Part shown: positions 9,089 to 53,269 of the stretch, one piece after another
Layout: each line of letters begins with the position of its first letter
Numbering within the stretch: the stretch's first letter is position 1
Origin: Eledone cirrhosa
Lineage: Eukaryota
DNA length: 64,000 nt
Direction of reading: 5' to 3'
NCBI GenBank assembly: GCA_964016885.1
Contig: OZ024743.1
Location: 90,520,001 to 90,584,000 of the forward strand
Translations under genes and position numbers: made by a program
The notes under the pieces: model-generated
What the model was told of the DNA's origin: nothing
Databases searched by the model: none
Seen by the model: the letters and a program-made list of their open reading frames with translations, nothing else

Positions 9089-9193
9089 ATGCCACTGCCA
9101 AAGGGAGGCAAGCCTAGTAAAATTGTCTATCCTCCAAACTGCAAAGAGGTATCAGAGGATATTGGAAAAGATGAACTCGTTCGAAGACTTAAG
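9089..9193 (+). CDS. PDS5: PDS5 coding exon 1 ([11 protein letters not shown]...ELVRRLK)
   Basis: Acceptor tgtag ends 9075, ATG at 9089, donor gtttgt; resembles the PDS5 N-terminus. Confidence 0.9.
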
Positions 9194-33100: not shown

Positions 33101-36100
33101 TTACTGTGAAAATATAATAGTATATATAGAGTAATGTAAATGCTAAAGGATTAAGTTGGTGTTTGGAACATAACTTAAGAAAAGGTTCTTACATAGAATG
33201 ATAATGGAATGTTTATATTTAAATATGAAAATTTAAGATACTACTGTTTTGTTTTTCCAGGGTTGGTATCAAAAAGCTAAAATGACATTTTCTGTTTGGA
33301 TTTCTTAATTTGGGATTATCAAACGCCTTATATATTATTCTATTTTACTAAGTAAATGTATAAAAATATAAGTTCTTGTTTCTATGTAAAGAAGTATTTT
33401 GTAAAAATCCCAGCCAAAGTATTGTTCCATTTGAGCAAGCTACGCCCAGCTGGCGAGGCTTGTCTCATAACATGGATGACCCATCTAACTCATGCAAGCA
33501 TGGAAAAATCAACGTTTAATGATGATATATATGTGTGTGTATATATATATTTATTTATTTTTTTTACAGCTGATTTAACTCTTCAGATATTTGTGAACAC
33601 TGGTTCCAATTTGAAAAAAGACTGTCCGAACATATATTCGTAAGTATCAAATCATTCTAGAATATTTTCTCTGACATTGATAATGGAATTGGACATAAAA
33701 CATGATGAAGATGTATTTTAAAATGTTATATTGAATCAGATCTTATATTTAGCTCTTATTTCTTTCACAGAAGCCTGTTACCAGTTCTTCAAAACACAGC
33801 AAAAATGGGGAACATCAGACAAACCAAGCATGCAATCAAATGTATCAGTATTGTGTACAAACATGAAAAGGAATCCATTTTACAGCAGGTGTTTGAGGTG
33901 AGAATTTAATACAGCCTAAACTATTTTTCTTTAATTTTGTAGGTTATTAATCCTTACGTTACCATATTTTTAATGAAAAACCCTGCCTCTGTGCTTCAAA
34001 TAATTAACACTGTTGACACCAACCTAGTGAAAACCTCCTCTAGTTCTTTGAAACAAGACTGCTTATTCTAGAGTTCCTATTTAAATTAAAATCTGGCCGA
34101 ATATGCTAATTCTCAAAGTCATTTTCGCCATTTAAAAAATATAAATTTAAATCTTCATTTTCATCATCATCATCATCATCATCAACGTTTAACGTCCGTG
34201 TTCCACGCTTGCATGGGTTTGGATGGGGGTAGTCCCACTTGAGGCAAGAGTGGTTGTCTTGCTCGCATAGGACTGTCTGGCAGGTTTTCTACAGTTGGAT
34301 GCCCTTCCTAACACCAACCACATTTACAGTGTGGGTCTGGGAGGTTTTTACCGTGTTGCCTACACGGCCACATTACAGCGTGGACTGTGTGTTTTTTTGT
34401 CGTGACACCTACACGATCTCATTTGTTTCGGCCTCGATGGAGCGGCACCAACATAACTTTACATAGAACGGGGTGGTGTGGATGGGGTGGGGGTGGTGGG
34501 ACGGGGTGTATTTTGTTAGAGATGCCTACTGGCTGGAGTAGGTTTTACTATATATTTAGGTAAGGCGGGTCTTCTCTGTTACTGAGTACCGCCAAAGGTC
34601 TCGGTCCAGTGACATTGTCTTGGAGAGGTGTAAGTGTGTGATGTCGGAGTTTATCAGCTTGTCCCAGGTTTTTCTGGGTCTGCCTATTCCGTGACTACCG
34701 TCTATCTTTATTGCCCTGCACTTTGTTATACAGCTATCGACTTTCATGCGCATCACGTGTCCATACCAACGTAGCCTTCTCTCGAGTAAACAACATCTGA
34801 TCCCTCTTATCTCTAATTTTTTCCTTAGTTCGTTTATGCTTTGCCGTTCACGTATATTACTGTTACACATCCAGCGGAGCATGCAAGCTTCGTTCCTCTC
34901 TAGTCTGCGTATATCCTCTGCACACAATGCCCAGGTCTCACTGCCATGCAGCATTGCTGTTCGTATGCAGGCATCGTACAACCTGCCTTTCATTTTTAGG
35001 GAGAACCCTTTAGCAGCTAATAGTGGTATAAGCTCTCTGAACTTTTTCCAACCAGTTCTGACTCTAGCTACAGTACTTTCAGAGCACCCTCCCCCACTGC
35101 TGATTTTATCGCCCAGGTAACGGAAGCTGTCCACTATTTCTATAGAACCCTCTGCGCAATTGAAAGAGCTAGTATTTTGTGGGCACTTGCTGCTACTTAT
35201 TGCACCAGAACACCGGCCACATGTAAAATCTATGTTCTTAGTTAGCTTACCTGTGATCCCACTACATCTTTTATGCACCCATACTTTGCATTTAGGACAT
35301 AAAATGGAGTTTCTACCTACGCCTTTCCTACACACCGAGCACGACCAATTCCCAGAAGGGACCGCCGCCTTGTTTTCTTTCCTACAAACTAGTACTTTGG
35401 TCTTAGCCAGGTTAATTTTAAGTCCTTTTGACTCTAGGCCGTGCTTCCATATTTGGAATTTCTTCTCTAGCTCGGCCATTGATTCCGCTATGAGTGTCAG
35501 GTCGTTTGCGTATAGGAGTTCCCATGGGCAGCCTGTCTTGAACTCCTCTGTTATAGCCTGAAGGGCAATAATAAATAGTAGGGGGCTGAGAACAGAGCCC
35601 TGATGGACGCCAACTTTTACGCTAAACTCTTCACTATATTCGTTGTTAATTCTAACCTTGCTGACTGTTTCTTTATACATGGCTTGTATAGCCCTCACAA
35701 GCCATTCGTCAACGCCTAGTTTTCTAAGAGCCCACCAGATAATGGAGCGGGGGACTCTGTCGAAGGCTTTCTCCAAGTCGACAAAAGCTAAGTAGAGGGG
35801 TTTACCTTTAGCTAGGTACTTCTCCTGTAGTTGTCGTACTATGAAAAGAGCGTCTGTGGTACTTTTGCCTGACACAAACCCGAACTGCATTTCATCTAGG
35901 TCAATTCTCTCTCTGATTAGTTGCGCTATTACTTTTTCCGTGACCTTCATTTTACATTTATTTATTTTTATTAGTATCAAAATTTTCATTGCACTATTTA
36001 GGATGTGTGTTTTTTGAATGGCTTAAATGACTCAACCATGTTGTAGTTGTTTAATTTCAAATCACATTAGTTAGGCATTCTTAACCCTGTAGTATTCAAA

Positions 36101-36876
36101 CTATCCATATCTGGCCAGAATTCTCTCACCTCTTTCTGTTCAAACCGGCTGTGGGTGACCGATCATACTGATATTAAGGTAATAAATAATTTCATAGATT
36201 CGATATCATTCGAGATAAAGCCTTTACCATGAAAATATAATAGTAAATATAGAGCAATGTAATGCAAAAGGGTTAAACTAAAAACACATTGAAAATTAAG
36301 TCCAAATTTTCACAATATATCCAACAGTAGAAATTCTGTAGACATTTGCATTAACAAAGCTGCTTTTAAATATTTTCTGCTACATCATTACAAGATTTTA
36401 AATTTATATCGTATTTTAAACAATATTGAGTGACTATTTTTCTTCTTTTTCTTCTTCCTTCTCTGAAGCATGTCAAAAAGTCATTAAACCCTGAATCTGC
36501 AAATTTCCTGACCTCCATCGTATCAATGGGACATATTGCTCAAATATGTCCAGGAGAATTTAGTACTGAAATGAAAAATGTTGTGTCCAAGTTAATTGTT
36601 AAAGATTTATTAATGCAAGATCGAGTAAGTTGATATATTAATTTTGATAATATATTGTTTTTTGTTTTTAATGTTTAATAAATTTAATATTATTCTTTCT
36701 TTTATGGGGAGAGAAAAAGCATTCAACTGTAGAAACCTTGCCAAAACAATGTATGTGAGATGTGGTCCACCAACTTGTCTAAGATGATAGTCCAACCCAT
36801 GCCAGCATAGGAAATGGGCATAAAATGACCACACACACACTCACACATATAGCAATGGGTCCATATACGCCTTTAC

Positions 36877-36917
<41 letters not shown>

Positions 36918-39900
36918 TACAACAGTGACATATACAGGTACTTAAGTTTCGTTGGGTTATACACCCCAACTCATTCAGCCTGTCATATAAAATAAGAATG
37001 GCTACCTCCACAGGTTGATTTGACATACATATATCATCACAATTATCATTTTATGACCATTTTCCCTATTAGTGAGGGTTGTATCGGTGCATTTTATCGT
37101 GGTAGCAGTACTAAGAAGGTTGTTGCGTCCTTGACACAACTAGAGTCCTCCCAACCCTTTGTTAGGCATGGTTACTATGACTAAATACCCTTCCGAACAT
37201 CATCCAAATTACAGAGTGTACTGTGTACATTTTATTGTGGCACCACCACCATCACATGATACAGTGTACTGGGTGTATTTTATTGTGGCACCAGCACCAC
37301 CACATGATACAGTTTACTGGGTGTATTTTATTGTGGTACCAGCACCACCACCACATGATACAGTGTACTGGGTGTATTTTATCATGGCACCAGCACCACC
37401 ACCACATGATACAGTGTACTGGGTGTATTTTATTGTGGTACCAGCACCACCACCACATGATACAGTGTACTGGGTGTATTTTATCATGGCACCAGCACCA
37501 CCACCACATGATACAGTGTACTGGGTGTATTTTATTGTGGTACCAGCACCACCACCACATGATACAGTGTACTGGGTGTATTTTATCATGGCACCAGCAC
37601 CACCACCACATGATACAGTGTACTGGGTGTATTTTATTGTGGTACCAGCACCACCACCACATGATACAGTGTACTGGGTGTATTTTATCATGGCACCAGC
37701 ACCACCACCACATGATACAGTGTACTGGGTGTATTTTATTGTGGTACCAGCACCACCACCACATGATACAGTGTACTGGGTGTATTTTATCATGGCACCA
37801 GCACCACTACCACATGATACAGTGTACTGGGTGTATTTTATTGTGGTACCAGCACCACCACCACATGATACAGTGTACTGGGTGTATTTTATCATGGCAA
37901 CAACACTACTACATGATACAGTGTACTGGGTGTATTTTATTGTGGCACCAGCACCACCACATGATACAGTGTACTGGGTGTATTTTATCATGGCAACAAC
38001 ACTACTACATGATACAGTGTACTGGGTGTATTTTATTGTGGCACCAGCACCACCACATGATACAGTGTACTGGGTGTATTTTATCATGGCAACAACACTA
38101 CTACATGATACAGTGTACTGGGTGTATTTTATTGTGGCACCAGCACCACCACATGATACAGTGTACTGGGTGTATTTTATCATGGCAACAACACTACTAC
38201 ATGATACAGTGTACTGGGTGTATTTTATTGTGGCACCAGCACCACCACATGATACAGTGTACTGGGTGTATTTTATTGTGGTACCAGCACCACCACCACA
38301 TGATACAGTGTACTGGGTGTATTTTATCATGGCACCAGCACCACCACCACATGATACAGTGTACTGGGTGTATTTTATTGTGGTACCAGCACCACCACCA
38401 CATGATACAGTGTACTGGGTGTATTTTATCATGGCAACAACACTACTACATGATACAGTGTACTGGGTGTATTTTATTGTGGCACCAGCACCACCACATG
38501 ATACAGTGTACTGGGTGTATTTTATCATGGCAACAACACTACTACATGATACAGTGTACTGGGTGTATTTTATTGTGGCACCAGCACCACCACATGATAC
38601 AGTGTACTGGGTGTATTTTATTGTGGCACCAGCACTACCACCACATGATACAGTGTACTGGGTGTATTTTATTGTGGTACCAGCACCACCACCACATGAT
38701 ACAGTGTACTGGGTGTATTTTATTGTGGCACCAGCACCACCACCACATGATACAGTGTACTGGGTGTATTTTATTGTGGTACCAGCACCACCACCACATG
38801 ATACAGTGTACTGGGTGTATTTTATTGTGGCACCAGCACCACCACCACATGATACAGTGTACTGGGTGTATTTTATTGTGGCACCAGCACCACCACATGA
38901 TAGAGTGTACTGGGTGTATTTTATTGTGGCACCAGCACCACCACATGATAGAGTGTACTGGGTGTATTTTATTGTGGCACCAGCACCACCACATGATGCA
39001 GTGTACTGGGTGTATTTTATTGTGGTACCAGCACCACCACCACATGATACAGTGTACTGGGTGTATTTTATTGTGGCACCAGCACCACCACCACATGATA
39101 CAGTGTTCTGGGTGTATTTTATTGTGGGACCAGCACCACCACATGATACAGTGTACTGGGTGTATTTTATTGTGGTACCAGCACCACCACCACATGATAC
39201 AGTGTACTGGGTGTATTTTATTGTGGCACCAGCACCACCACCACATGATACAGTGTACTGGGTGTATTTTATTGTGGCACCAGCACCACCACCACATGAT
39301 ACAGTGTACTGGGTGTATTTTATTGTGGTACCAGCACCACCACCACATGATACAGTGTACTGGGTGTATTTTATCATGGCAACAACACTACCACCACATG
39401 ATACAGTGTACTGGGTGTATTTTATTGTGGTACCAGCACCACCACCACATGATACAGTGTACTGGGTGTATTTTATTGTGGCACCAGCACCACCACATGA
39501 TACAGTGTACTGGGTGTATTTTATTGTGGCACCAGCACCACCACATGATACAGTGTACTGGGTGTATTTTATTGTGGCACCAGCACCACCACATGATACA
39601 GTGTACTGGGTGTATTTTATTGTGGCACCAGCACCACCACCACATGATACAGTGTACTGGGTGTATTTTATCATGGCAACAACACTACCACCACATGATA
39701 CAGTGTACTGGGTGTATTTTATTGTGGCACCAGCACCACCACCACATGATACAGTGTACTGGGTGTATTTTATTGTGGCACCAGCACCACCACATGATAC
39801 AGTGTACTGGGTGTATTTTATTGTGGCACCAGCACCACCACCACATGATACAGAGTACTGGGTGTATTTTATTGTGGCACCAGCACTACCACCACATGAT

Positions 39901-41098
39901 ACAGTGTACTGGGTGTATTTTATTGTGGTACCAGCACCACCACCACATGATACAGTGTACTGGGTGTATTTTATCATGGCAACAACACTACCACCACATG
40001 ATACAGTGTACTGGGTGTATTTTATTGTGGTACCAGCACCACCACCACATGATACAGTGTACTGGGTGTATTTTATTGTGGTACCAGCACCACCACCACA
40101 TGATACAGTGTACTGGGTGTATTTTATTGTGGCACCAGCACCACCACCACATGATACAGTGTACTGGGTGTATTTTATTGTGGCACCAGCACCACCACAT
40201 GATACAGTGTACTGGGTGTATTTTATTGTGGCACCAGCACCACCACATGATACAGTGTACTGGGTGTATTTTATTGTGGCACCAGCACCACCACATGATA
40301 CAGTGTACTGGGTGTATTTTATTGTGGCACCAGCACCACCACATGATACAGTGTACTGGGTGTATTTTATTGTGGCACCAGCACCACCACCACATGATAC
40401 AGTGTACTGGGTGTATTTTATTGTGGCACCAGCACCACCACCACATGATACAGTGTACTGGGTGTATTTTATTGTGGCACCAGCACCACCACATGATACA
40501 GTGTACTGGGTGTATTTTATTGTGGCACCAGCACCACCACCACATGATACAGTGTACTGGGTGTATTTTATTGTGGCACCAGCACCACCACATGATACAG
40601 TGTACTGGGTGTATTTTATTGTGGCACCAGCACCACCACATGATACAGTTTACTGGGTGTATTTTATTGTGGTACCAGCACCACCACATGATACAGTGTA
40701 CTGGGTGTATTTTATTGTGGTACCAGCACCACCACCACATGATACAGTGTACTGGGTGTATTTTATTGTGGTACCAGCACCACCACCACATGATACAGTG
40801 TACTGGGTGTATTTTATCATGGCAACAACACTACCACCACATGATACAGTGTACTGGGTGTATTTTATTGTGGCACCAGCACCACCACCACATGATACAG
40901 TGTACTGGGTGTATTTTATTGTGGCACCAGCACCACCACCACATGATACAGTGTACTGGGTGTATTTTATCATGGCAACAACACTACCACCACATGATAC
41001 AGTGTACTGGGTGTATTTTATCATGGCAACAACACTACCATTTTACTCCTTTCATATTTAAGCCAAGTTTTTTATTTAGATTAATTCACCCCAAACTT

Positions 41099-41143
<45 letters not shown>

Positions 41144-43953
41144 ATGTGTATGTGTATGTATATATATATATGTGAATGTATTTATGTGTATGTGTGTGTG
41201 CGTGTTAGTGATATAACTGAATCAGTGACAAGATATAAATTAGATTCTGTTCACTTCATTGATTTTTGATTGATTCTTTAATTGATAAAGTTTTGTATTT
41301 ATTATACATTATTGTTATGCTAAATGGAGGGCGGTGGATTGGTAGTATCGGTGGAGGGTCGGACGCCATGCTTTCCAGCATAGTTAAGTCCCTTTACGAT
41401 CTGAGTTCAAATCCCGCCGAGGTTGACTTTGCCTTTCATCCTTACGGGGTTGATAAAATAGAGTACCAGTAATGCACTGGGTAATTGCTGGCCTTGAGCC
41501 TAAAGTTGAAACAATTATTATTATGCTAAATGAGTAACTAGACGTGTAAAGTGTATTAAAAATGGATACTTTTATATTTGTTCATCCTCCAGACCCAGGG
41601 TGTACATGTTCATGATAGCTGGTATGCAGATCATGCTATTTCTGAAGAAACTCAAGCAAAGGTGAGTGTTTCATTTCCTTGTCCACTACAGCAGGCAATG
41701 TTGTTTGAGAGCTTAGGTCAAAATACCTTGCAGTATTTGTTCCAACTCTCTTCACTCTGTGTTTAAATTCCACTGAGGCTAGGTGGTGTATTGGCAGAAT
41801 TGTTAGAGTTGCACAGTCTACCCTGTAAGATGTTCATACTGGTGGCACATGTGGCACCAGTCCACTCTAAGGTGATCATGCTGATGACGTGACAAAAAGT
41901 GTCCAGTCCACTCTGTAAGGTGGTTGTTACTGGTGACACATTGATAAAACACCTAGTCCACATTTTAAAGTGGTTGACAATGGGAAGGGCATCCAACCGT
42001 AGAAATTGAGCCAAAATTTGTGTGAGCAAGATTTTGGTCACCCGACCTGACTTGTTTCAAACATGGAAAAAAATGAACCTTAAACAATGATGGTGGATGA
42101 GATGCTTTGTGGTATTTCTTTTGACTATTTGCATTTGAAAATTATCTGAGGCCTACCTGGGTTGTAGAGTTAATCTGTCACCTCCTGGCTCTTGGCTGAT
42201 CTTAATGGAGTTCAATCTATTGCAAGCATTTAGGATAGGTCTCCAGTTTGATGATAATCATAAATTTTAAAAATTTAATAGCCCCCCCCCCCCCCATAGT
42301 TTTCCAGTAATGGCAGCCATATATAGCTAATTTATTAACCCCTTTGAGATTTAGGGCAGCATTTATTTGCTTTTTCCAAACCCCTAAATGCAATGTTTAG
42401 AAACATTATTAAAACAAGATTATTTTCTAAAATGAGGATTCTTTATATTAATTGTTATATGCAATTTGCATTAAAAAAAAAGTTGTCTATCTAGAAGAAA
42501 TGGTAATGTCTTAATTTTAATCTGTGCAGGTTTTGGCTATGAAAATGTTGGTTCGCTGGTTGTTGGGTTTACGGAATAATGCAGGAAATTCAGCAACATC
42601 TACGTTACGGCTACTTTATACTGTGATAATCCATGAGGGTGATCTTATGGAGAGAGGAAAGATAAAGTAAGTATTTACAATATATATTTTTAATACTGAT
42701 GGCAAGACCCCAGCATGGCCTCAGCCTGTCGGCTGGAACATGTAATAGAGTAAAGGGTTTAGATTGATATCCAGTGATTTTGATCTCATTGTTTACAATT
42801 TGCTCAACAAAATCATTTGGAGTACACATGGGATTAATTGTAAGACAACATTCCCAGCCAGAAGCCTAGCTAGGAAAACAGTTATTGTATCTACAGATTA
42901 ACATATGAAAATGTTAAAGTACTCTCAATTTCATCAATTGAAACAGCCAATAACCTGCTAGTTTAGCACACACATGTATATATAATACTTGATGTTTGTG
43001 TTGGTTCGATGTCATGTTTGATGATATATATAAAGTAAAAGAGATATAGAGATGGACAGAATTAACATATGGGTTGAAGGAGGAGGATACATACTGAGAA
43101 AAGTGACATGGAAAGCGTGTGAGAGATCAATGCTATACTAGAGCACAGAAAATAGGAGCATACACTTACACACAAGTAATTGTCTGTTGATCTTTTGTGT
43201 GAAATTTGTTTTCTTTTCACCTTTTCTCCCTTTTTTTCCCTCATATATAAAATCCTGGAAAATATATAATCTTTTTATTTTTTTTTCCAATTTGTTTTCT
43301 TTTCCTCAAACCATTGCCTTCTTCTTTCTGTCCTCAAGGGGTAATTTACTCACTTTATTCAACTATTTTATAGTTGATATCTAAATTGTGGTAGCTTTTC
43401 AAATTTTCAAGCGTGCCCAAATTTTTTTCAGAAACCTATTTATACATGCATTTAAATTATTTTATTTAAAGCAAACCTGAATTGGCCCGACTCCGGCTAC
43501 AAGCAGGCTGTTGTATGTTAAAGTTGGCAGAAGAACCCTGTTTTGCAGAGCTCATCACCAGAGAACAGTTCCAAGCATTAGCATTGCTTATTAATGTAAG
43601 ATTTAAAAAATTTTATTTAGTGTTATTTTACTCAAACTACTTTCAGCTGCTTTTTGTTCTTCAGTTTTTATGTTATGTGTTCATCTACTGAATGTTGGTG
43701 TGGACATTTAGAAAACATGGCAAATAAAGTATTCCCTATTCACTTTTTATATATATGTATATATATATTTATATATATGGAACAACCCATCTAACCCATG
43801 CTAATGTGGAAAGTGGATGTTAAATGGTGATGATGATGATATATATTGTCTGACAAATGACTTGATCTGAGACCCTGTGTTGAAACTAAAACAGTTACTG
43901 CATAAGTCATTTTAGCCATTTGAAAACACATAAAATGTACATACATGCATTCA

Positions 43954-44004
<51 letters not shown>

Positions 44005-46713
44005 TTAATAAGTACAGTAATGGTACTCATGTTGTAAAGGCTGGTGGCCTAGTTGTTAGTGTTAGACTCATGATTATAAGGCTGGTGGCCTAGTTGTTAG
44101 TGTTAGACTCATGATTATAAGGCTGGTGGCCTAGTTGTTAGTGTTAGACTCATGATTATAAGGCTGTGAGTTTCATTTCTTGGTAATGTGGCACATTGTA
44201 TTATTGAACAAGACATTTCATGAAAGTGTTGAGGGCCCTTTATCATTGAAACACCTGAGAAACCTCCTCTGAGATGCAATTTTATAAAGATGCCAGCTAA
44301 ACTTGCATGGGTGTGAGCTGTTTAATTGAGATGGTGAATTTTTGTGGTTTTAGCTTGTGAAACTGTAGTAAGAGGGAAAAAAATTTAAGCCCTATGTATT
44401 TAGATCACTTGACAATGAATTTTGCCTCTGGGATGATACGCATATAGCGTTCCTTTATTTTAAGGTACTCTAATGTGATCTTCCTTCTAGTCAATTCTGA
44501 GCCTTATTTGAGATAGATCAATATTAGTATTTATAAGCTTTGAATTATATTTTAAGCGATATTATTCATTGAGATGTTATGTATATTACTAATTTTTCTA
44601 ATGTATATTTATATATAATAGTGTTTTATTTTTATGTCTCTTGCAGGATAGCTGTTATCAAGTGCGTCTCCGGTTCGCTATGAAATTGAACAAAGGACTG
44701 CTAAGTCTTCGCTTACCTCTTGAATATATGAGTATCTTCTCTTTGGCAGCTAATGACCCTGTCAAGGAACGACGAGCTCAGGTGAAGCAGTTCCTTTATG
44801 CAAATATTAGCAAGAGGAGAGAATATCTCAAACAGCATGCATCACCAGGCTGTAAGTTATAACCCAGCTTTGCTTTTTACACTAAAACCTTTTACTTTGA
44901 AGTATGAAGCCTTTTTATAAAATTAGAGTAATTATTTAGTTAATTATTATTGAAGGAAGGCTTTAACTAATTGCATTAGCCCTTTCATTACCATATTTCT
45001 TATGAATGATGCTGCTTATAATTTTCATGTCATTTTGAAAATAATCAAGAATTTGCAGGAATTTTATGAAATAACTAACTTCTCATTATAAAGCTGATGC
45101 TTGGAATATAACTTAACAAAAGTTCTTACATAAATGTATGATGAGAGGGAGGGTTAGATAATTAAGATTACAAAATCAGTTTAATATCATAGAGCCAGGG
45201 TGGTTTCATGTGGTTTGGTATCAAAAACATTAAATATTTTATATCTAATTAATATTCTTTATAACTTAATTAAATTTCATTATTTCTGTTAGTCTTTCCA
45301 GTTAGTTGTCCTTGTTAAGGACTTGTTGCTAAAGTGGAATTGGCACTAATTCTCTGCTTTAATCCTGTTGATACCAACACTCCCAAAACTGGCTCTGGAT
45401 TTATGAAATAAAACCCATCAATTTTAACCCTTTCATTTCCATATTTTCAATGAAATACTCTATTGGGGGAACTTAGTGAAATAATTTTTTCTCAAATTGA
45501 TGATTAAAACAACAAAAAGTTCTTATATGAAATTAAGTGAAATATTTTAAGGAAGACTTCTTTAAAATGGTCAGTTTTGTATTACAGAACTAGGGTCAGT
45601 TTCAGGCAGGTTGGTACCTAAGGGGTATTAAAATCAAAATCTTTCAACATAATTTTATATAATAACGATTTGTTAAGTTAGTCATATTACATATGCTATC
45701 TTATTAATGATATAATTAATAATTTTAGTAAATTGTTATTTAATTAATTAAAATACAATGTATTTCATGAGAAATATAGATACAAAAAGGTTAAAGAAAC
45801 TGATGACAGTGAAACATTTCATAGACTATCTGTACATATTTGGAATGAGAATTTGAAATTTTAGCTGCAATGACACTTTTATCTGCAAAGAAACTTCCTG
45901 TGAATTGCAACATTGTAAGGAAAGGAAGCCAGCTAAACCTGTAGAGGTTTAAGCTGTAATAACGTGGTAGGACTGGGGTCTCTATCATTAAAATACCTGA
46001 GAATCCTCAAATGAATTGCAACCCCATAGGAAGTCAGCTAAACCTGTATAGTATGAGCTGTTCATTTAAAAAAAAAAGAATGTCTTCCTGTATAAATTAA
46101 GTTAACATTAATTGGATGTCTGATCTTTCTAGTCAAACACTCAATACTTCATACCAGTCTCAAAACTCTTTATTCTCTCACTATTTTCATTCTCCTACTG
46201 TAACTCTCTCTCTCTAACAAATAACAACACATTTTGCAAATTTATTATAATGTGGATAAAATATTTGCTCTTGCAATATATCCAAATTTTCCAAAGTACA
46301 TTCTGAAACATGAATTGTGAACCACATACACAAGTGCAGACACAAACAACAATAAAATAAATTCAATCTTATTAAAACAATTTTTTTTTGTTTGTTTTTC
46401 CAGCTAAAATCTATTCCTTACTCCCAGATTATATGCTGCCCTATACAATCCACTTGCTGGCTCACGACCCTGACCTCAAATCACATGATCATATGCAGGC
46501 TTTGAACATCATTAAAGAGTTTGTAACAATCAGCATTTCTTTTCTTTTTTCCTTTTTCCTTTCCATAAAATATATGTATATACAGTGAAATTCTGTTAAA
46601 ACAAAATTCACAGGGTATAAAAAAAATCAAAATTCTTTATAATGTGATCGACCTAACACATCAAGCGTGTGGTGTGGGATTTAAAAAATGTTGTTGTACT
46701 GAATGTGTGTGTT

Positions 46714-46762
<49 letters not shown>

Positions 46763-49700
46763 TTAATACTTTTCTGAGTGGATAATTAGTTTATTAATTT
46801 ATTAATATATCTTCTCCTTTCATTGAGATGCCTACATATTTGAGGCAGATAATTTTATAGTCATATATAAATATTATATATATTATATATAAAGCATGGC
46901 TGTTTCCAGTGGGTGTTCAGAAAGTACAATAACTAGGGTAAGAATGGGATGGAAGGAGTTCAGGGAGCTACTGCCACTGCTAGCTGCAAAAGGCTTCTCC
47001 CTCAAAATGAAAGGCAGACTGTATGATGCATGTATCCGAACAGCAATGTTACATGGTAGTGAGACCTGGGCGCTGAAGGTGGAAGACTTATGTAGATTAG
47101 AAAGAAACGAAGCCTGCATGCTCCGATGGATGTATAATAGTAATATACGCGAACGGCAAAGCATAAATGAATTGAGAGAGAGGCTGAGCATAAGAGGAAT
47201 CAAATGCTGTGTGCAGGAGAGGAGGTTATGTTGGTATGGACATGTGATGCGTATGAAGGATGACAGCTGCATAAAAAGGTGCAGAGCACTAGAAGTCAAT
47301 GGAAACCGCGGAGTGGGGAGACCCAAGAAGACCTGGGATGAGTGATAAAAGCCAACCTTACTCAATTACACCTCTCAAAGGCGATGACACATGACCGTGA
47401 CCTCTGGCGTCACGCAGTAATACAGAGTACCTGACCTCCCATGGGTACAAGCTGAAGCATATACACAATATGTCCCCACACCCTCCCACTGCAAAGTGGT
47501 CGTGGCGGTTCCACGGCAAAAAAGCACCCAGCCCACATTGTAAAGTGGACGTGTAGGCACCACGGACAAAAGCACCCAGCACTCACTGTAAATGAGGTTG
47601 GTGTCAGGAAGGGCATCCAGCTGTAGAAATCAAGCCAAAATCAGTTCCTGTATGAGCAAGGCATGGTCAGCCGACCAGACACTGCCCACAACAGGGCAAC
47701 CCGTCTAACCCATGCTAGCATGGAAGAACGGACGTAAAACGGTGATGATGATGGTGTGTGTGTGTGTATTTATGCCCCGTAACAAAACAGTGACAAAAAA
47801 AAAAAATGATAAAATAAATGGCAGATTAGAAAAAACGTACTGTGTTTGATGTGGTTGACTAAATTAAGGTGGTGCCCCAGCATGGCTGCAGTCTAATGCC
47901 TGAAACCAATAAAAGAATATGAACTAAATATTTCATAAAATCATTTGTCTTCAGCATTTGCGTTACTCTATATATACTATTGTATTTTCATGGTAAAAGC
48001 TTTATCTCGTATAAGATGGAATCTATAAGATTTTGATAATATTTGTTTTGAGAACAATACCTTAACATCAGTATGAGTGGCCAATTACAGCTGGTTTGAA
48101 CAGAAAGCAGCGAGAGAATTGTGGCTGGAAACAGCCGATTTAAATGCTAAAGGGTTAAATTTTTGGAAAAATATATTTGAGGTGTTATTTCATTTTCCTC
48201 TATTTTCAGATGTCTTTGGTTTGTGATGGATCCATTGATGAGTCGGAGTGAAGATTACAATTATGCGTTCTTTAGACGAATGATTGAAGATATTAAACAG
48301 ACTAAAGATGCACAAGGTCCAGAAGATGAGGAAATGAATAAGGTAAGATAACACATGATCTAGTTGTAGAAACTGTCTTTCACTATTTTCTTATTTATAT
48401 ATGAAATTGCAGGAGCTGGTGCAGTAATGTACCAGCTTCAGCAGTCCGCAATCAGAAGGAGGGAGGTAGGTGTAAAAGACAAATTCACTATCTTCTATTC
48501 AGTATAAGACACAGGCAGGCATTTTTGAAATGCGCCTTAAAAGCCATCAAATAGAGTATTTTAATATATATTGTATCAAGCCTTTAGATATGTATTGTTA
48601 TTTTTTTGTTATATAAATGTTCTTTGTTGCAGTTATCTTTATCACCATTTCACATTTGTTTTCCATTCTGGTATAGGTTGGATGGGTGAGAAAACCATGT
48701 TTTAATCATGTTCCATATTTTTGTGTGGACTCTATGGTTGGATGTCCTTAACACCAACCACTTTACAGAGAAAGTACATGGTACATACTAACATATGGCA
48801 GTGTACTGGATGCATTTTATTGTGGCACTGTTAGTAGAAAGGTTGTCACGTACTTGACAAAACCTGAGTGTCCTCTGTACTCTATATTCTATCTTGTATT
48901 GCATTGTACAAAATATGGTTTGGTTGAAGTAAAGAAATTATATGTATATTCTTAATTCTATATTTTATTAGAAATTATATGCTGTCTGTGACATTGCGTT
49001 GGGACTGATGATGACAAAAATATCAAATGTTGTTCTCAAAGATGTTGTCATTGAACCTCTTCTTCCAATAAAACTGTTCACCAAACCAGATCATGTAAGT
49101 ATTGCTATTAACCCTTTCATTATCATATTTCTCATGGAAGATTACTGTCTTATGATTTGCAATTAATTTTTTAAATAATCAAGAATTTGATGGGTTTTAG
49201 CAATATAACTAATTTTCTTCTTATTAAGCTTAACAAAGGTTCTTAAATAAAATTATGATAGAAAATGTAAATATCTTAAAATGTGTAGTTTTGAATTGTA
49301 GAATCAATGGCAGTTTCAGGCAGATATCCAAAGGTTGATGTTGCATTGTTGCTTTGTTTTCTTATCGCTTTCTCTTTTCTTCCTCATTACTATCTCTCAT
49401 TGTCATTATTGAAAATATTAGCCTGAAACCACTCCTGGTTTTATGATATAAAACTGTTTAAAGTATTTATATTTATCTAAAAAGCTTCCATCATAATTTT
49501 ATATAAGAAAATTTGTTTAAATTATGTTCCAAACACCAGTGCCCTATTCACCACCATTGACACGGAGTTGGCTACCTGCAGGTATGAGATTTGCAAGCTT
49601 GAATAGCTCTTCCAATGCTTCTCCCTCACCCTCCATGGGCTTCCATTTGCATATAATAGTTAGAGATGGGGAGAGCAGGAGAGAACATCAATGCACACTC

Positions 49701-52700
49701 ACATTTGATACCAACTTAATGAGAAAGTTAATTATGATATAAAAACTGGAAATAGTTTTAAAACAATCTAAGACCATAACTAAATTCAAATATTTTGACA
49801 ATGTATAGGCGGTATATTAATCATCTAAATAATGCCTCTATAAACTATAACAATGTATGGGCAGCAGATAACATTGTTTTAAATAACATCAATAGAAACT
49901 ATAATTCCTTTTAGTTATTCTTGAAGTATTATTATCTTTTATGTTGTGTTGATTTGGTATTCATATGAAACCCTATCTTTCTACTTACAGAGTTACAGCA
50001 ATACCAAATTATACCTCCCTAAAGATTTCATTTTTGATACAGGAAAGGTAAGATAATAGTCATCATCAGAAAATATTTTAACTAATTATTTCATATTTGC
50101 ATTTTTTTTTTATACAATAAAATCCACACAGATATGTTTTCTTGTGAGCCCTTTGTGGTGAATAAAAAGAAATTATTATTATTAGAGCATTGAGGTGGAT
50201 TGGTAGTGTTGGATAACATGCTTTGTGGGATATACTTACATTTTTTCACATTCTGAGTTCAAATCATGCTGAGGTTATCTTTAAAATAAAGCACCAGTAA
50301 TGCACTGGGGACGATTTAATTGACTTTCCTCTTCTCCAGAATTTTTGGTCTTGTGCTTAATCAGAAACCATTATTATTATTAGTGTTATTAGGGCGGTGG
50401 ATTGGCAGTATCGGTAGTGTCAGATACCATGATTTTCAACATGGAGTTATGGCCCTTTGCGTTCTGAGTTCAAATCCTGTCGCAGTTAACTTTGTCTTTC
50501 ACCCTTACAGGGGTCAATAAAATAAAGCACCAGTAATGCACTGCGGTAATTGCTGGCCTTGTGCAAAAAGTAGAAACAATTATTAGTGTCATGAGTAAAT
50601 ATGGCATGCAGCTTAGTGGTTAGGGTGTTAGATATGATCATAATGTCGTGTTCGATTCCTGAACCAAGAGTGTTCTTTAGCATGAGGCTTCATTTCATGC
50701 TGCTTTTCATGATATGACTGGGGTCCCTTTCATTAGAACGAATACTTGAGAAGCCTCCTATGAGATATAATCTCGTAGGCCAGCTAAACCTACATGGATG
50801 CAACCTGTAAATTTTATTTCATTCCACAATTATTAAAGACAAAGTTGACCATGGTGAGATTACTGGGTTCAATTTCTGCCAAGGTCAAATTTGCCTTTCA
50901 TCCTTCTGGGGTCAAAAAAATATAGTACTAGTTAAGTACTGAAGTCAATGACTTTCCCCTCTCGCCAAGATTGCTAGCTTTGTGCCTAAATTATAAACCA
51001 TTATTGTTATTGTTTTTATGAGTAAATATATTTTTCTGTTTTCATTTTGTCATTTTAAAATATTTTTTACTTTTCTAGAAGAAAGTTTCTCAGCCAGCTG
51101 TACTGAATACAACTGAGAAACCTATAGCTACCAAACCATCTGTGCCGTTCACTACAACAGAAATTATTGTGACGTCCCCCAAACCTGTTGTAAATCCCAA
51201 CCCCACATGCCCCCGGGAATCAAAGAAAAAGAAGGAAAAAGAAAATGAAGCAAAAGAAAGGTAAATAGACTTGCTAGAATAATAAAAAAAAAAGTTTCCA
51301 ATGACTACGATTGAGTGGTGTGTTGTGTTCTTGAGCAAGATGTTTCATTTCAACTGACAATAATTATAATTCGATTTCTCGGATTATATAAGGAATTGTA
51401 AAACTGTGATTAACTTTTAACATCCTGTAATAGCAAAAGTGTGTTGCTTATTAGGATGTTGACTTGTGATCATAAGGTCGTGGGTTTGATTCCAGGATCA
51501 GGCAATGCGTTGCTTTCCATGATAAGACTAGGGCTCCTATCATTAAATTATCCCCAAAAAAACCTCTTGCGAGAATCAACCTTGTAGGAGGTAAACCTAC
51601 ATTTTTATTTTTGTTTTAAAAACAAGTTTGTTAATTCATAGGCTTATATGGCCAATACTCTATTTGTGAAATATAATAAGTTCACCAAATTCAATCTTTA
51701 TTTTGACATATTGTGGCAACTAACCAGTTACAGTAATATACTTGTTTACTAATGAGCTGTAGTAAGTTTCAGAATTCATCCCCTGCCCTTATTTTGGTTA
51801 CTTTTTCAGGCTTAAAAAGTTATTTATATGCCACAATTTTACAAATACTTGAAATTTCTGTCTTCAATCTTTACTACCACTCCTAAATTCATTCACTTCT
51901 CACTTCTTTGTGGTGAAATGATTCACTTGATCCAACATTAACTGCCTCAGTTCTTCACCGGACAATTCTGTATATTCCTCAATAACTCCTTTTAATATTT
52001 GAAGAGGTCTTATGCGTTTGCTTTTCACATTAGTGGATGTCCATTTGCTAATTTCCGAGTTTGCGGCACACACACAGAATTAAGAACTTTCATTTATATA
52101 TGATATTTGGTGATGAAACTAAATATGATTTATTCTGTCCATAAAACAACAGGTTTATGTGTTAGTTTACAATAAATATTTCAAAGATGTTTTCCCTTTC
52201 TCTTCTACAATCCAGCACATCTTCACAGAGTGACAAGAAAAAAAAAAGCGAAGAATCAACTAGTGAACAGAAGGCTCGTACTAGCCGAGCCGTGAAACAG
52301 ACGTCTGCTGCTGTCAAAAAAAAGGGGGCTTTAGTGAAAAAAGCTGCACTCCAAGCTGGGAAGAAAAACAAAACACCTATAAAATTAACAAAAGCTACCA
52401 GCAAATCTAAAAAGCCAACAGGCATGCAGGCCAAAATCACAGACTTTCGCTCGCCAAAGCGACAAACTTCTAAAAATTCTCCATTAAAAGTGTTATCACC
52501 TACAAAACAAATCTTGAACGGCTCCACTAAAGGCTCATCACGCCGGACTGCTGCACAAAACCGATCATCATCCAGTGCATCAACAAATAACAAAGCTGAA
52601 AGTAGTACAAGAAAAAGGGCAGCAGGATCTCCTGATGAAAATGTTCCAGCAAAGAAGCGAGCAGCAAATGAAAAAGAATCTCGGTATGAAGCTTTATTAT

Positions 52701-53269
52701 TATTATTAAGGGCAGTGTATTGGCTAAATCGATAGAGCGTCGAACACCATGCTTTGTAACAGAGTTACGGCCCTTTACGTTTTCAAATCCCGCCGAGGTT
52801 AGCTTTGCCTTCCTTATGGGGTCGGTTTAAACCCCCCCCCCCCATTGTTGGTCTTGTGTCTAAATTGGAAACCATTATAATTATTATTATCATATATCTG
52901 TGTTGTGTGTATAAACACGTGGGTGTGTGTATGTATGGAATTCATTTTATATTTTTGCTTGTCCGATTTCTTTATATGCCCTCACACTTTGTAATTTGAC
53001 ATTGTAATGTCTCCTCATTCATATATTAAATATAATACTTTTTTTTCTTGTTTTGGGGTTTTTTTTAAAGTAAGAAAAGCAGCAGCAGCAGCAGTAGTAG
53101 TAGTGTGAGTAATGGTAGTGAAAAGGAAGACACTTCTGCTGAATCAAGTACATCCATCCAGTCACCAAGCAAGGAAAAGGAGGCAAAAGAAGCTGAAATA
53201 AATGTAAGTGTTGATGATGATGATGATGATGATGATAAGGATGATAAAGATGAGGATTTATTGCTATGA
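9089..53269 (+). CDS. PDS5: Sister chromatid cohesion protein PDS5 homolog (PDS5A/B family), 31 coding exons, ~1396 aa
   Basis: Manually spliced GT-AG exons join in consistent phase into one 4191-nt ORF with PDS5 hallmarks: [109 protein letters not shown] basic low-complexity tail follows. The acceptor 13 nt before the ATG implies an upstream non-coding exon that I did not locate. Confidence 0.96.
9745..9939 (+). CDS. PDS5: PDS5 coding exon 2 (MLARVFQD...[14 protein letters not shown])
   Basis: tcag/gtatat boundaries; contains the conserved APEAP motif. Confidence 0.95.
11584..11670 (+). CDS. PDS5: PDS5 coding exon 3 (EIFMFL...KRYFYLLE)
   Basis: taag/gtaagg; 87 nt, phase 0-0. Confidence 0.93.
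11841..12671 (-). mobile_element. Non-autonomous Helitron (~830 bp)
   Basis: Minus strand starts A|TCTATATATATATAAAA and ends with hairpin CCCGtgcaatgcCGGG + taccactgCTAG|T; internal repeat ttttcacctaatgcgggYcctagg x3-4. Confidence 0.8.
14166..14263 (+). CDS. PDS5: PDS5 coding exon 4 ([11 protein letters not shown]...MFSII)
   Basis: ttcag/gtaagt; 98 nt. Confidence 0.93.
14746..14870 (-). mobile_element. tRNA-derived SINE family with gcctttcatccttacggggtcgataaaataaagtaccag central domain. Other copies: ~5940-6025(-), 41329-41525, 50391-50585, 50860-51005, 52710-52880, 63276-63500, 63837-64000
   Basis: B-box-like gagttcaaatccc followed by the same central block in many copies. Confidence 0.8.
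15041..15167 (+). CDS. PDS5: PDS5 coding exon 5 (EKHSAKV...LIEPYK)
   Basis: ttcag/gtaagg; 127 nt. Confidence 0.93.
15519..15599 (+). CDS. PDS5: PDS5 coding exon 6 ([11 protein letters not shown]...EPYIQT)
   Basis: tttag/gtaagt; 81 nt. Confidence 0.92.
16666..16926 (+). mobile_element. Mini non-autonomous Helitron (~260 bp)
   Basis: A|TCTATATTATAATAA start; 3' hairpin GAGGGtgatgatgttgCCCTC then atCTAG|T; internal GA/GT microsatellites. Confidence 0.65.
16980..17120 (+). CDS. PDS5: PDS5 coding exon 7 ([10 protein letters not shown]...PQLEFKLK)
   Basis: tctag/gtaagt; 141 nt. Confidence 0.93.
18540..21088 (-). mobile_element. Full-length but decayed piggyBac transposon (PGBD4-like transposase)
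   Basis: TTAA at 18536-18539 and 21089-21092; TIRs cccttttgttac / gtaacgaaaggg; transposase remnants inside. Confidence 0.93.
19161..20809 (-). pseudogene. piggyBac transposase pseudogene (ATG 20809, main ORF 19410-20636, C-terminal Cys-rich domain to TGA 19161)
   Basis: [17 protein letters not shown] acidic start; [42 protein letters not shown]; CRD RRQCRECL...[16 protein letters not shown]; interrupted by frameshifts and a premature stop. Confidence 0.9.
21527..21642 (+). CDS. PDS5: PDS5 coding exon 8 (SSEEIER...LWNCFLGR)
   Basis: tctag/gtcagt; 116 nt. Confidence 0.92.
21699..22023 (+). mobile_element. Complete tRNA-derived SINE (A/B boxes, CORE-like centre, hairpin, RTE-derived tail)
   Basis: A box tggcttagtgg, B box gagttcaatt, tccttgagcaagacactt centre; tail matches the RTE 3' UTR at 47486-47752; (GAT)n end. 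Confidence 0.85.
22472..24061 (+). mobile_element. Internally deleted piggyBac transposon (second family), 1590 bp
   Basis: Perfect 14-bp TIR CCCTTTAGCATTCA/TGAATGCTAAAGGG with TTAA on both sides; ORF 22711-23418 is a transposase N-terminus ([13 protein letters not shown]...[11 protein letters not shown]) that stops before the catalytic DDD core. Confidence 0.93.
23693..23931. repeat. 120-bp direct tandem duplication inside the piggyBac right arm
   Basis: tacttttacacctgttaattaatttcacctgccc...ctactgacaaaattt twice, about one mismatch. Confidence 0.9.
24691..24785 (+). CDS. PDS5: PDS5 coding exon 9 (FNDISTGVR...VRDII)
   Basis: gctag/gtgagt; 95 nt. Confidence 0.92.
25274..25419 (+). CDS. PDS5: PDS5 coding exon 10 ([14 protein letters not shown]...ERTLDKK)
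   Basis: tttag/gtaagt; 146 nt. Confidence 0.93.
26238..26683 (+). mobile_element. RTE LINE 3' end (last codons [19 protein letters not shown] + full 3' UTR + (GAT)n)
   Basis: Near-identical reverse complement of 34162-34616. Confidence 0.9.
26773..26924 (+). CDS. PDS5: PDS5 coding exon 11 ([12 protein letters not shown]...YYQHSPED)
   Basis: tttag/gtaaat; 152 nt. Confidence 0.93.
27888..28001 (+). CDS. PDS5: PDS5 coding exon 12 (LLVERIF...LDEHAL)
   Basis: gttag/gtaagc; 114 nt. Confidence 0.92.
28922..28954 (+). CDS. PDS5: PDS5 coding exon 13, 33-nt microexon ([10 protein letters not shown])
   Basis: tccag/gtgcgt; phase 2-2; resembles the PDS5 segment KALNEMWKCQ. Confidence 0.8.
30077..30171 (+). 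CDS. PDS5: PDS5 coding exon 14 ([10 protein letters not shown]...KLIALA)
   Basis: ttcag/gtatgt; 95 nt; bridges the phases of exons 13 and 15. Confidence 0.85.
30330..30729 (+). repeat. About six diverged ~48-bp units embedded in an RTE/SINE-type tail ending in (GAT)n
   Basis: gataaaatgcactcagtacactctg-like unit repeated, followed by acccatgctagcttggaaaaatggacgttaaatggtgatgatgat. Confidence 0.8.
30974..31113 (+). CDS. PDS5: PDS5 coding exon 15 ([10 protein letters not shown]...KAEDAV)
   Basis: ttcag/gtaatt; 140 nt. Confidence 0.92.
31606..31815 (+). CDS. PDS5: PDS5 coding exon 16 ([10 protein letters not shown]...GLKLLL)
   Basis: tacag/gttagt; 210 nt; LLERIAPV motif. Confidence 0.92.
32222..32401 (-). 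mobile_element. 3'-truncated copy of the 21699 SINE
   Basis: Reverse complement of 21699-21879 with few mismatches. Confidence 0.9.
32737..32827 (+). CDS. PDS5: PDS5 coding exon 17 (ALSHVFP...NEDEVI)
   Basis: tacag/gtgagt; 91 nt. Confidence 0.9.
33570..33639 (+). CDS. PDS5: PDS5 coding exon 18 ([11 protein letters not shown]...PNIY)
   Basis: tacag/gtaagt; 70 nt. Confidence 0.9.
33771..33897 (+). CDS. PDS5: PDS5 coding exon 19 (SLLPVLQ...QQVFE)
   Basis: cacag/gtgaga; 127 nt. Confidence 0.9.
34162..35950 (-). mobile_element. 5'-truncated RTE-clade LINE with uninterrupted RT C-terminal ORF (34556-35950), 3' UTR and (GAT)n tail
   Basis: [45 protein letters not shown] (YADD mutated), FRYLG, GRPRKTW; possible TSD cttcatttt at 34153-34161 and 35945-35953. 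Confidence 0.95.
36469..36624 (+). CDS. PDS5: PDS5 coding exon 20 (HVKKSLNP...[10 protein letters not shown])
   Basis: tgaag/gtaagt; 156 nt. Confidence 0.92.
37211..41040. repeat. Minisatellite, ~77 units of 48/51 bp, in PDS5 intron 20
   Basis: Unit catgatacagtgtactgggtgtattttattgtggcaccagcaccac(cac)ca with a few recurrent variants. Confidence 0.98.
41593..41661 (+). CDS. PDS5: PDS5 coding exon 21 ([10 protein letters not shown]...EETQAK)
   Basis: tccag/gtgagt; 69 nt. Confidence 0.9.
42530..42666 (+). CDS. PDS5: PDS5 coding exon 22 ([13 protein letters not shown]...[10 protein letters not shown])
   Basis: tgcag/gtaagt; 137 nt. Confidence 0.93.
43472..43595 (+). CDS. PDS5: PDS5 coding exon 23 (KPELARLRL...LALLIN)
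   Basis: taaag/gtaaga; 124 nt. Confidence 0.92.
44037..44166 (+). repeat. 41-bp x3 tandem repeat of a SINE head
   Basis: aaggctggtggcctagttgttagtgttagactcatgattat at 44037, 44078 and 44119, then decayed SINE body (ttgaacaagacatttc). Confidence 0.85.
44647..44851 (+). CDS. PDS5: PDS5 coding exon 24 (DSCYQVR...LRLPLEY...QHASPG)
   Basis: tgcag/gtaagt; 205 nt. Confidence 0.94.
46404..46518 (+). CDS. PDS5: PDS5 coding exon 25 (KIYSLLPDY...LAHDPD...NIIKE)
   Basis: tccag/gtttgt (weak donor; position fixed by the phase of exon 26); 115 nt. Confidence 0.88.
46907..47752 (+). mobile_element. 5'-truncated RTE LINE 3' end (second 3' UTR subtype) with (GAT)n tail
   Basis: [14 protein letters not shown]...MLHGSETW...GRPKKTW; 3' UTR with a 2.5x ~48-bp repeat. 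Confidence 0.92.
48210..48342 (+). CDS. PDS5: PDS5 coding exon 26 (CLWFVMDPL...[10 protein letters not shown]...MNK)
   Basis: ttcag/gtaaga; 133 nt. Confidence 0.93.
48972..49094 (+). CDS. PDS5: PDS5 coding exon 27 (KLYAVCDIA...FTKPDH)
   Basis: attag/gtaagt; 123 nt. Confidence 0.92.
49991..50047 (+). CDS. PDS5: PDS5 coding exon 28 ([19 protein letters not shown])
   Basis: tacag/gtaaga; 57 nt; NTKxYLP motif. Confidence 0.88.
51079..51260 (+). CDS. PDS5: PDS5 coding exon 29 (KKVSQPAVL...NEAKE)
   Basis: tctag/gtaaat; open frame, 182 nt; low-complexity tail with weak homology support. Confidence 0.8.
52216..52683 (+). CDS. PDS5: PDS5 coding exon 30, Lys/Ser-rich disordered tail
   Basis: tccag/gtatga; 468 nt inside ORF 52187-52735; phase matches exon 29. 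Confidence 0.82.
53071..53269 (+). CDS. PDS5: PDS5 coding exon 31 (KKSSSSS...EAEIN[VSVDDDD...LLL*]); may instead end at donor 53203
   Basis: Poly-T tract + aag acceptor; open frame to TGA 53267-53269; internal AAT|gtaagt donor. Confidence 0.65.

What the first reader, a model, noticed from the sequence alone, without database searches (positions are those of the whole stretch)
52427..52462. PIP-degron-like motif ([12 protein letters not shown]) in the PDS5 disordered tail
Seen: exon 30 encodes [12 protein letters not shown]. Established: the CRL4-Cdt2 PIP degron is Q-x-x-[ILMV]-T-D-[FY]-[FY]-x-x-x-[KR], as in p21 (QTSMTDFYHSKR). This motif has Q1, hydrophobic 4, TD at 5-6, F7 and the basic +4 residue; only aromatic position 8 is missing. 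It overlaps an S-P site (SPKR), and two full CDK consensus sites (SPLK, SPTK) follow. Inference: this PDS5 may bind PCNA directly or be turned over in S phase under phospho-control, a link to replication I do not know from vertebrate PDS5. No GRP AT-hook core (present in human PDS5B) is visible in the tail.
Basis: partly seen in the sequence, partly recalled or inferred. Interest (0 to 1): 0.7.

Follow-up and report, generated by a model that had tools for sequence, protein, structure and literature searches.

The report
PCNA-docking motif in invertebrate PDS5 tails
The floppy tail of the octopus chromosome-cohesion protein PDS5 carries a short motif, shared with snails, many bivalves, some worms and starfish but absent from the vertebrate copies examined, that likely docks PDS5 on the DNA-replication clamp PCNA and is probably not a destruction signal.

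Summary
The motif is real. [12 protein letters not shown] lies at 52427-52462 in coding exon 30 of an octopod PDS5 gene, spliced in frame in RNA-like contigs. What evolution keeps is a PIP-like core, Q-x-x-[ILMV]-x-x-F/Y: 4 of 4 coleoid, 18 of 18 gastropod, 7 of 12 bivalve tails, and 5 of 10 echinoderm tails fetched after the pattern was fixed (0.09 expected); 0 of 72 vertebrate PDS5B-type sequences. The degron marks are not kept. TD plus basic +4 occur together only in coleoids, position 8 is never aromatic in molluscs, and the +4 arginine is also the basic residue of a full CDK site (SPKR). A fold model seats the peptide in PCNA's PIP pocket (0.73, best control 0.02), but such pairs can pass from memory. 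Best reading: a weak, non-canonical PCNA-docking box, likely tuned by CDK (0.6). Coleoid-specific Cdt2 degron: 0.1. The precedent is the Scc2/NIPBL C-terminal PIP; my searches found no report for PDS5.

The parts
52427..52450 (+). PIP-like box Q1-A-K-I4-T-D-F7-R8; non-canonical at position 8
   Evidence: (Q, F, D are the three most conserved columns of the exon)
52451..52462 (+). SPKR: full CDK consensus whose last residue is also the degron-type +4 basic; coleoid-specific
52478..52507 (+). Two further full CDK consensus sites, SPLK (52478-52489) and SPTK (52496-52507), inside a block invariant in coleoids
   Evidence: 32 of 35 residues (exon residues 71-105) invariant across the window and 4 coleoid proteins
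52216..52683 (+). PDS5 coding exon 30, basic low-complexity tail
51079..51260 (+). PDS5 coding exon 29, start of the tail
53071..53203 (+). PDS5 coding exon 31
   Evidence: partly covered by X8 and X12 contigs
9089..50047 (+). PDS5 HEAT-repeat body, coding exons 1-28
   Evidence: (PF20168)

Best explanation
The motif is a conserved, non-canonical PIP-like box in the disordered tail of PDS5 that likely docks PDS5 weakly on PCNA, and probably does not trigger its destruction. Shown: the sequence, its splicing, its conservation pattern and its basic flanks. Predicted: Q1 enters PCNA's Q pocket and I4 and F7 its hydrophobic pocket. Inferred: with no aromatic at position 8 the grip would be weak and helped by the positive flanks; it would bring PDS5-bound cohesin next to PCNA left on newly made DNA, where the PIP-dependent acetyltransferase Eco1/ESCO2 acts, mirroring the C-terminal PIP of the rival HAWK Scc2/NIPBL. 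In coleoids CDK phosphorylation of SPKR, SPLK and SPTK would add negative charge to the flank and loosen the contact.
For: Core Q..[ILMV]..[FY] in 4/4 coleoid, 18/18 gastropod, 7/12 bivalve, 2/6 other lophotrochozoan and 5/10 echinoderm tails, against 0.02, 0.27, 0.15, 0.06 and 0.09 expected from shuffled tails. The echinoderms came, after the pattern was set. Q71 is the only invariant column of the exon in a 25-sequence alignment. In 32 non-coleoid instances, K/R stands at -1 in 27 and at position 3 in 25, against a 21% background; position 6 is D/E in 23. Basic 3 with acidic 6 is the combination reported to raise PCNA affinity (PMC8191301 passages), as is positive flank charge (PMC6881253 passages); the window flank is +5. 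Relatives show other PIP forms: an aromatic pair in two crinoids and one spider-like sequence, a hydrophobic 8 in starfish, sea cucumbers and annelids, and a compact QxxLxF in three starfish and Lineus, the form solved for Chaetomium PolD4 (PMC10087552 passages). Complex model: score 0.73 in three runs, best of 3 controls 0.02, runs agree in at least 52% of contacts, partner pLDDT at least 53. The mark was reached by 51 of 78 solved and 2 of 108 mismatched microbial pairs, and by 39 of 65 solved and 2 of 126 unrelated eukaryotic pairs. The contacts are PCNA 40, 44-47, 126-129, 208, 234 and 250-255, the known PIP pocket, and all 20 interface residues are identical in this genome's own PCNA.
Against: No binding was measured. 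Position 8, which inserts into the hydrophobic pocket, is small, polar or basic in all molluscan instances; no tail has the full canonical Q..h..aromatic-aromatic (0 of 87). The model used a stand-in PCNA, ignored the alignments, was not calibrated on peptides or disordered chains, had no mutated-motif control, and can pass from memory of the many solved PIP-PCNA complexes. The motif is dispensable in several lineages: the core is absent from 4 heterodont bivalve tails, 3 sea urchins, Priapulus, Ptychodera, Actinia, all 21 long arthropod-type tails and vertebrates. The counts are of related sequences, so 18 gastropods are one clade, not 18 events. PIP-like strings overlap motifs of other partners.
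Confidence: 0.6

Rival explanations
1. In coleoid cephalopods the box has become a CRL4-Cdt2 PIP degron that removes PCNA-bound PDS5 in S phase or after DNA damage, gated by CDK.
For: Coleoids alone combine T5-D6 with a basic +4 (4 of 4). TD is described as rare among PCNA partners and typical of Cdt2 substrates (PMC3973308 passages). Fission-yeast Cdt1 degrons lack the aromatic residues altogether (PMC3152358 passages), so a missing aromatic 8 does not exclude a degron. PCNA D122 and E124 are kept in this genome (their role in Cdt2 recruitment is recalled).
Against: The TD plus +4 pattern is in 0 of 83 non-coleoid tails; T5 is in 0 of 32 non-coleoid core instances and basic +4 in 11 of 32, near background (p = 0.055 without correction for kinship). 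In coleoids 101 of 155 exon residues are invariant and the motif sits in a 32-of-35 block, so keeping T5 and R+4 says little. R+4 is also the basic residue of the CDK site. PDS5 is needed to promote and protect cohesin acetylation and stays on chromatin behind forks (for yeast and mammals), so bulk S-phase destruction would be costly.
Confidence: 0.1
2. The conserved core is a real short linear motif but binds something other than PCNA, for example a REV1- or MLH1-type pocket, another clamp, a cohesin subunit or PDS5's own HEAT body.
For: Position 8 is consistently non-hydrophobic in molluscs, which suggests a pocket that does not need it. PIP, RIR and MIP motifs overlap (PMC6881253 passage). 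Only PCNA was modelled.
Against: The variation across phyla follows PIP rules (Q or N at 1, hydrophobic 4, aromatic 7, aromatic or hydrophobic 8 in several lineages, compact QxxLxF form). RIR and MIP need an aromatic pair (recalled), which molluscs lack. The model docks the motif in the PIP pocket.
Confidence: 0.22
3. The motif is a chance or vestigial string in a low-complexity tail with no present function in octopods.
For: Several lineages lack it. The coleoid tail is conserved overall.
Against: It is the best-conserved part of the exon between coleoids and gastropods, recurs in held-out echinoderms at about 50 times the shuffle expectation, and the listed base changes inside it are silent.
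Confidence: 0.08

Closest known systems
C-terminal PIP motifs of the cohesin loader Scc2/NIPBL (PMC10497406)
   Same: A PIP or PIP-like motif in the flexible C-terminal part of a cohesin HAWK; the vertebrate protein uses several non-canonical copies; links cohesin to PCNA on new DNA.
   Different: Here it is on PDS5, the HAWK that competes with Scc2; it is patchy across animals and absent from the vertebrate PDS5 tails examined; binding is only predicted.
CRL4-Cdt2 PIP degron (p21, Cdt1, Set8), signature Q/N-x-x-h-T-D-aromatic-aromatic-x-x-x-R/K (PMC3973308)
   Same: The coleoid motif matches at Q1, I4, T5, D6, F7 and basic +4.
   Different: Position 8 is arginine; TD and +4 are not conserved outside coleoids; no turnover shown.
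Non-canonical single-aromatic PIP motifs (human p12, Chaetomium PolD4 QSTLNF, CAF-1; PMC10087552, PMC6881253)
   Same: Q pocket plus a two-pronged hydrophobic plug, weak binding (22-38 micromolar for PolD4 and p12); starfish and Lineus PDS5 carry the compact PolD4-like form.
   Different: The mollusc form keeps the aromatic at position 7 rather than at 8 or 6.
Eco1/ESCO2 PIP box
   Same: A degenerate PIP in a disordered region that ties cohesion establishment to PCNA.
   Different: It is on the acetyltransferase, is essential and is conserved from yeast to vertebrates.

Membership tests
PDS5 (PF20168) | HEAT-repeat PDS5 domain with orthologous exons | tested here: met
   groups with Octopus, Argonauta and Sepia PDS5
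PIP box | Q at 1, aliphatic residue at 4, aromatic at 7 | tested here: met
   Q, I, F; conserved
PIP box | Aromatic at 8 | tested here: not met
   R in coleoids; never aromatic in molluscan instances; an aromatic pair only in two crinoids and one spider-like sequence, which lack Q at 1
PIP box | Lies in a disordered region with positively charged flanks | tested here: met
   coil with pLDDT 55-60 in a single-sequence model, a weak test; 2 aromatics in 258 residues and net +5 over 22 residues
PIP box | Occupies PCNA's Q pocket and hydrophobic pocket | tested here: inconclusive
   predicted, 0.73 against best control 0.02, may be from memory of solved complexes
PIP box | Measured, motif-dependent binding to PCNA | not testable with these tools
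   needs ITC, NMR or pull-down
CRL4-Cdt2 PIP degron | T-D at positions 5-6 | tested here: met
   met in the window and 4 of 4 coleoids; T5 in 0 of 32 non-coleoid core instances
CRL4-Cdt2 PIP degron | Two aromatics at 7-8 | tested here: not met
   F-R
CRL4-Cdt2 PIP degron | Basic residue at +4, conserved with the box | tested here: inconclusive
   R present but shared with the CDK consensus; 11 of 32 outside coleoids against a 21% background
CRL4-Cdt2 PIP degron | PCNA- and Cdt2-dependent degradation in S phase or after damage | not testable with these tools
   needs a reporter assay

The most novel reading that the evidence does not exclude
Ancestral bilaterian PDS5 carried one or two PCNA-docking motifs in its tail, making both competing cohesin HAWKs PCNA clients; vertebrates lost them, and coleoid cephalopods turned theirs into a CDK-gated CRL4-Cdt2 degron that strips PDS5 from cohesin at replication forks.
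Probability: 0.1. Interest if true: 0.75.

Novelty: new member of a known kind. Interest (0 to 1): 0.5.

Why it matters
How PDS5 is coupled to replication is open: mammalian PDS5 sits on nascent DNA and protects forks, and yeast Pds5 promotes PCNA-coupled cohesin acetylation, but I found no direct PDS5-PCNA motif on record. A motif present in several invertebrate phyla and missing from vertebrates would give a two-residue handle to test whether PDS5 is brought to forks directly, and would show that the PCNA link in the cohesin pathway has moved between subunits in animal evolution. It is one cheap peptide experiment away from a clear answer. Its reach is limited: the motif kind is well known, vertebrates appear to lack it, and fly, worm and yeast tails were not sampled.

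Tried and rejected
Profile search of 1.84 billion representatives with exon 30 gave only one coleoid fragment: the tail is too divergent for domain-level search. The 24-residue peptide matched nothing in the PDB sequence file at E up to 10 (low power), and solved PDS5 chains stop before the tail. A degenerate pattern for the last exon found nothing real inside the window; the exon lies just beyond it. The first shuffle run missed the tail anchor in 9 sequences and was redone with a BLAST anchor. The tree is the quick one; the careful search did not finish, so it was used only to place unnamed sequences. No earlier scan findings matched. The original degron paper could not be read. Absence of a GRP core was rejected as special: GRP is present in 7 of 16 anchored gastropod tails and lacking in the others. 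Reading the DDDD run after 53203 as coding was rejected: a strong GTAAGT donor precedes it and no homolog has it. In human cells PCNA did not co-immunoprecipitate with cohesin components (PMC12857682 passage); this concerns proteins that lack the motif, so it does not test it.

Full report
Observation. The 36 bases at 52427-52462 read [12 protein letters not shown] on the + strand. The window holds a PDS5 gene: PF20168 matches exon by exon, and tblastn with Octopus sinensis PDS5 finds 31 coding exons from 9089 to 53203, the motif exon being the 30th. Exon 30 spans 52216-52683 with AG/GT ends and phase 2 on both sides, matching its neighbours. A contig of run X20 with no differences, and contigs of three runs from relatives, join exon 29 straight to exon 30. 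The same frame is in annotated Octopus, Argonauta and Sepia proteins. The four listed substitutions inside the motif are silent (8 rows not shown). One correction: SPKR is a full CDK consensus. The tail has 5 such sites against 1.06 expected (P = 0.003).

What is conserved. I fetched PDS5 homologs in three searches (one search listed 120 of 664 hits, one search covered only proteins of 1468 residues or more). For the shuffle test I used 87 tails. I left out near-duplicates and isoforms, fragments without a tail, five fused or distant rows, and all but 8 of the 72 vertebrate rows; two vertebrate rows were added. The core Q..[ILMV]..[FY] is in 4 of 4 coleoids (0.02 expected), 18 of 18 gastropods (0.27), 7 of 12 bivalves (0.15), 0 of 1 chiton, 2 of 6 annelid, nemertean or unnamed lophotrochozoan rows (0.06), 5 of 10 echinoderms (0.09), 0 of 2 hemichordate and priapulid, 0 of 21 arthropod-type (0.67), 0 of 1 cnidarian, 0 of 1 nematode, 0 of 2 plants and 0 of 10 vertebrates. 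All 72 vertebrate rows lacked it when scanned. Only one PDS5A-like tail was seen (P0149), also without it. The echinoderms are a held-out test, fetched after the pattern was fixed. Unnamed rows were placed by a quick tree or, for nine mite-like rows, by resemblance only. Related sequences are not independent events. In an alignment of 25 coleoid, gastropod and one bivalve sequence, Q1 is the only invariant column of the exon and F7 and D6 come next (for the bivalve a different Q was aligned).

The variants follow PIP rules. Gastropods read KQTK[ILM][ED]DF. Oysters, mussel, scallop and ark shell read KQ[LT]x[ILMV][DE]QF, further down the tail, just before a conserved NVRR...NGTSDG island. The chiton has QTKITDIL at that second site and Solemya QPSIKEML. 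Starfish have Q[RK]PIKEFL at the first site and a compact QTTLxF at the second; sea cucumbers QTLMSKYV and QTNLNKFV; crinoids SQSIKR[YF]F; Owenia NKSITDYM; a spider-like sequence DTKIERYF. I infer two tail sites kept differentially. Across 32 non-coleoid instances, K/R is at -1 in 27 and at 3 in 25, D/E at 6 in 23, and flanks are net positive in 31.

The degron marks are not conserved. [ILMV]TD[FY]....[KR] is in 4 of 4 coleoids and none of the other 83 tails. T5 is in 0 of 32 non-coleoid core instances, and basic +4 in 11 of 32 against 21% background. Within coleoids 101 of 155 exon residues are invariant and the motif starts a 32-of-35 block that includes all three CDK sites, so R+4 may be kept for the CDK site. 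The defining signature needs two aromatics (PMC3973308), and position 8 here is arginine. Against dismissing it, TD is rare outside Cdt2 substrates (PMC3973308) and fission-yeast Cdt1 degrons lack aromatics (PMC3152358). I leave it at 0.1.

Docking model. This genome's PCNA is split by introns, so a full-length metagenome PCNA (L008) stood in; 213 of 256 aligned residues equal the own-genome exons. With 37 tail residues as partner the score was 0.73 in three runs, best of 3 controls 0.02; runs agree in at least 52% of contacts; partner pLDDT at least 53. The mark was reached by 51 of 78 solved and 2 of 108 mismatched microbial pairs, and 39 of 65 solved and 2 of 126 unrelated eukaryotic pairs; peptides and disordered chains were not calibrated, and the alignments were not used. 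Q1 touches PCNA 45, 208, 252 and 254; I4 touches 40, 44-47, 234 and 250-252; F7 touches 234 and 252. These are the pocket residues named in PMC6881253 and PMC8191301, and all 20 interface residues are identical in the own PCNA. Many PIP-PCNA complexes are solved, so the pass shows likeness, not binding.

Mechanism. Shown: a spliced, conserved motif in a basic tail modelled as coil. Predicted: PIP-pocket docking. Inferred: weak binding helped by flank charge; positioning of PDS5-cohesin near PCNA on new DNA, where PIP-dependent Eco1/ESCO2 acetylates Smc3 with help from Pds5 (PMC7619413, PMC10656103); loosening by CDK phosphorylation in coleoids. Confidence 0.6; other partner 0.22; degron 0.1; no function 0.08.

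Literature. The nearest precedent is the C-terminal PIP of Scc2 and the PIP-like motifs of NIPBL (PMC10497406: passages; section 10). Searches for PDS5 with 'PIP box' and 'C-terminal tail', with 'CRL4-Cdt2' and with 'PCNA-interacting' and 'invertebrate' gave 0 papers. PDS5 with 'PIP-box', Drosophila and PCNA gave 2. PDS5 with PIP and PCNA gave 97, of which 25 were listed and I read passages of 4; none of those passages reports a PIP in PDS5. The library lacks most subscription papers and I opened no supplements, so this is not proof of novelty. Other papers were seen as passages only: PMC8191301, PMC6881253 (and section 9), PMC6379725, PMC3152358, PMC10087552, PMC3973308. Searches were search listings.

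Verdict. It works like a non-canonical PIP box; it fails a defining test of both the canonical PIP box and the Cdt2 degron (aromatic 8) and is not filed as either. It is a new member of a known kind of motif, on a protein family where I found no record of one. Interest 0.5.

Noticed in passing
L001:4880-5336 (G000:C4:118330879-118331336): Processed PDS5 pseudogene fragment: residues 877-1038 with introns removed, 92-100% identical, with a stop, a 5-codon deletion and a frameshift.
   Followed up: partly
window:54320-54325 and G000:C4 about 90587178 (L005): Two alternative last exons after exon 31: Pro-stop inside the window, and IRRRTRPRKK-stop about 3.2 kb beyond it. Octopus vulgaris and Sepia isoforms end both ways, so the basic NLS-like end is an old splice choice.
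   Followed up: partly
PDS5 tails P0019-P0053, P0062, P0137, P0138, P0147; remnant at window:53071-53203: A conserved island N[VIL]R...NG[TV]SD[GE][ED] near the tail end in most molluscs, an annelid, a hemichordate and starfish; only a VSNGSEKE remnant in octopods. Function unexplained; it resembles a CK2 site (recalled).
   Followed up: partly
window:51150-51215 (exon 29): A mollusc-wide island TTEII[V]xSxxPVVNPxP at the start of the tail.
   Followed up: no
window:52298-52393 (exon 30 residues 28-59): A second coleoid-invariant block (30 of 32 residues), lysine- and alanine-rich, overlapping a predicted helix (residues 13-50); not conserved in gastropods.
   Followed up: no
P0036, P0037, P0039, P0050: Heterodont bivalves (Mactra, Mya and two unnamed kin) lack the PIP-like core and share other islands such as KRILKRT and KKRKF[ND]LEKDAVPAP; their PDS5 stem branch is long.
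   Followed up: no
window:8050-9026, 46893-47342 and 22702-23415: Intronic fragments that look like non-LTR retrotransposon ORFs and a piggyBac-like transposase; labels are recalled, not tested.
   Followed up: no
G000:C1:336782967-336783791 (-): Weak PF20168 match (34.5 bits) inside a 2116-codon open frame, probably another HEAT-repeat gene.
   Followed up: no
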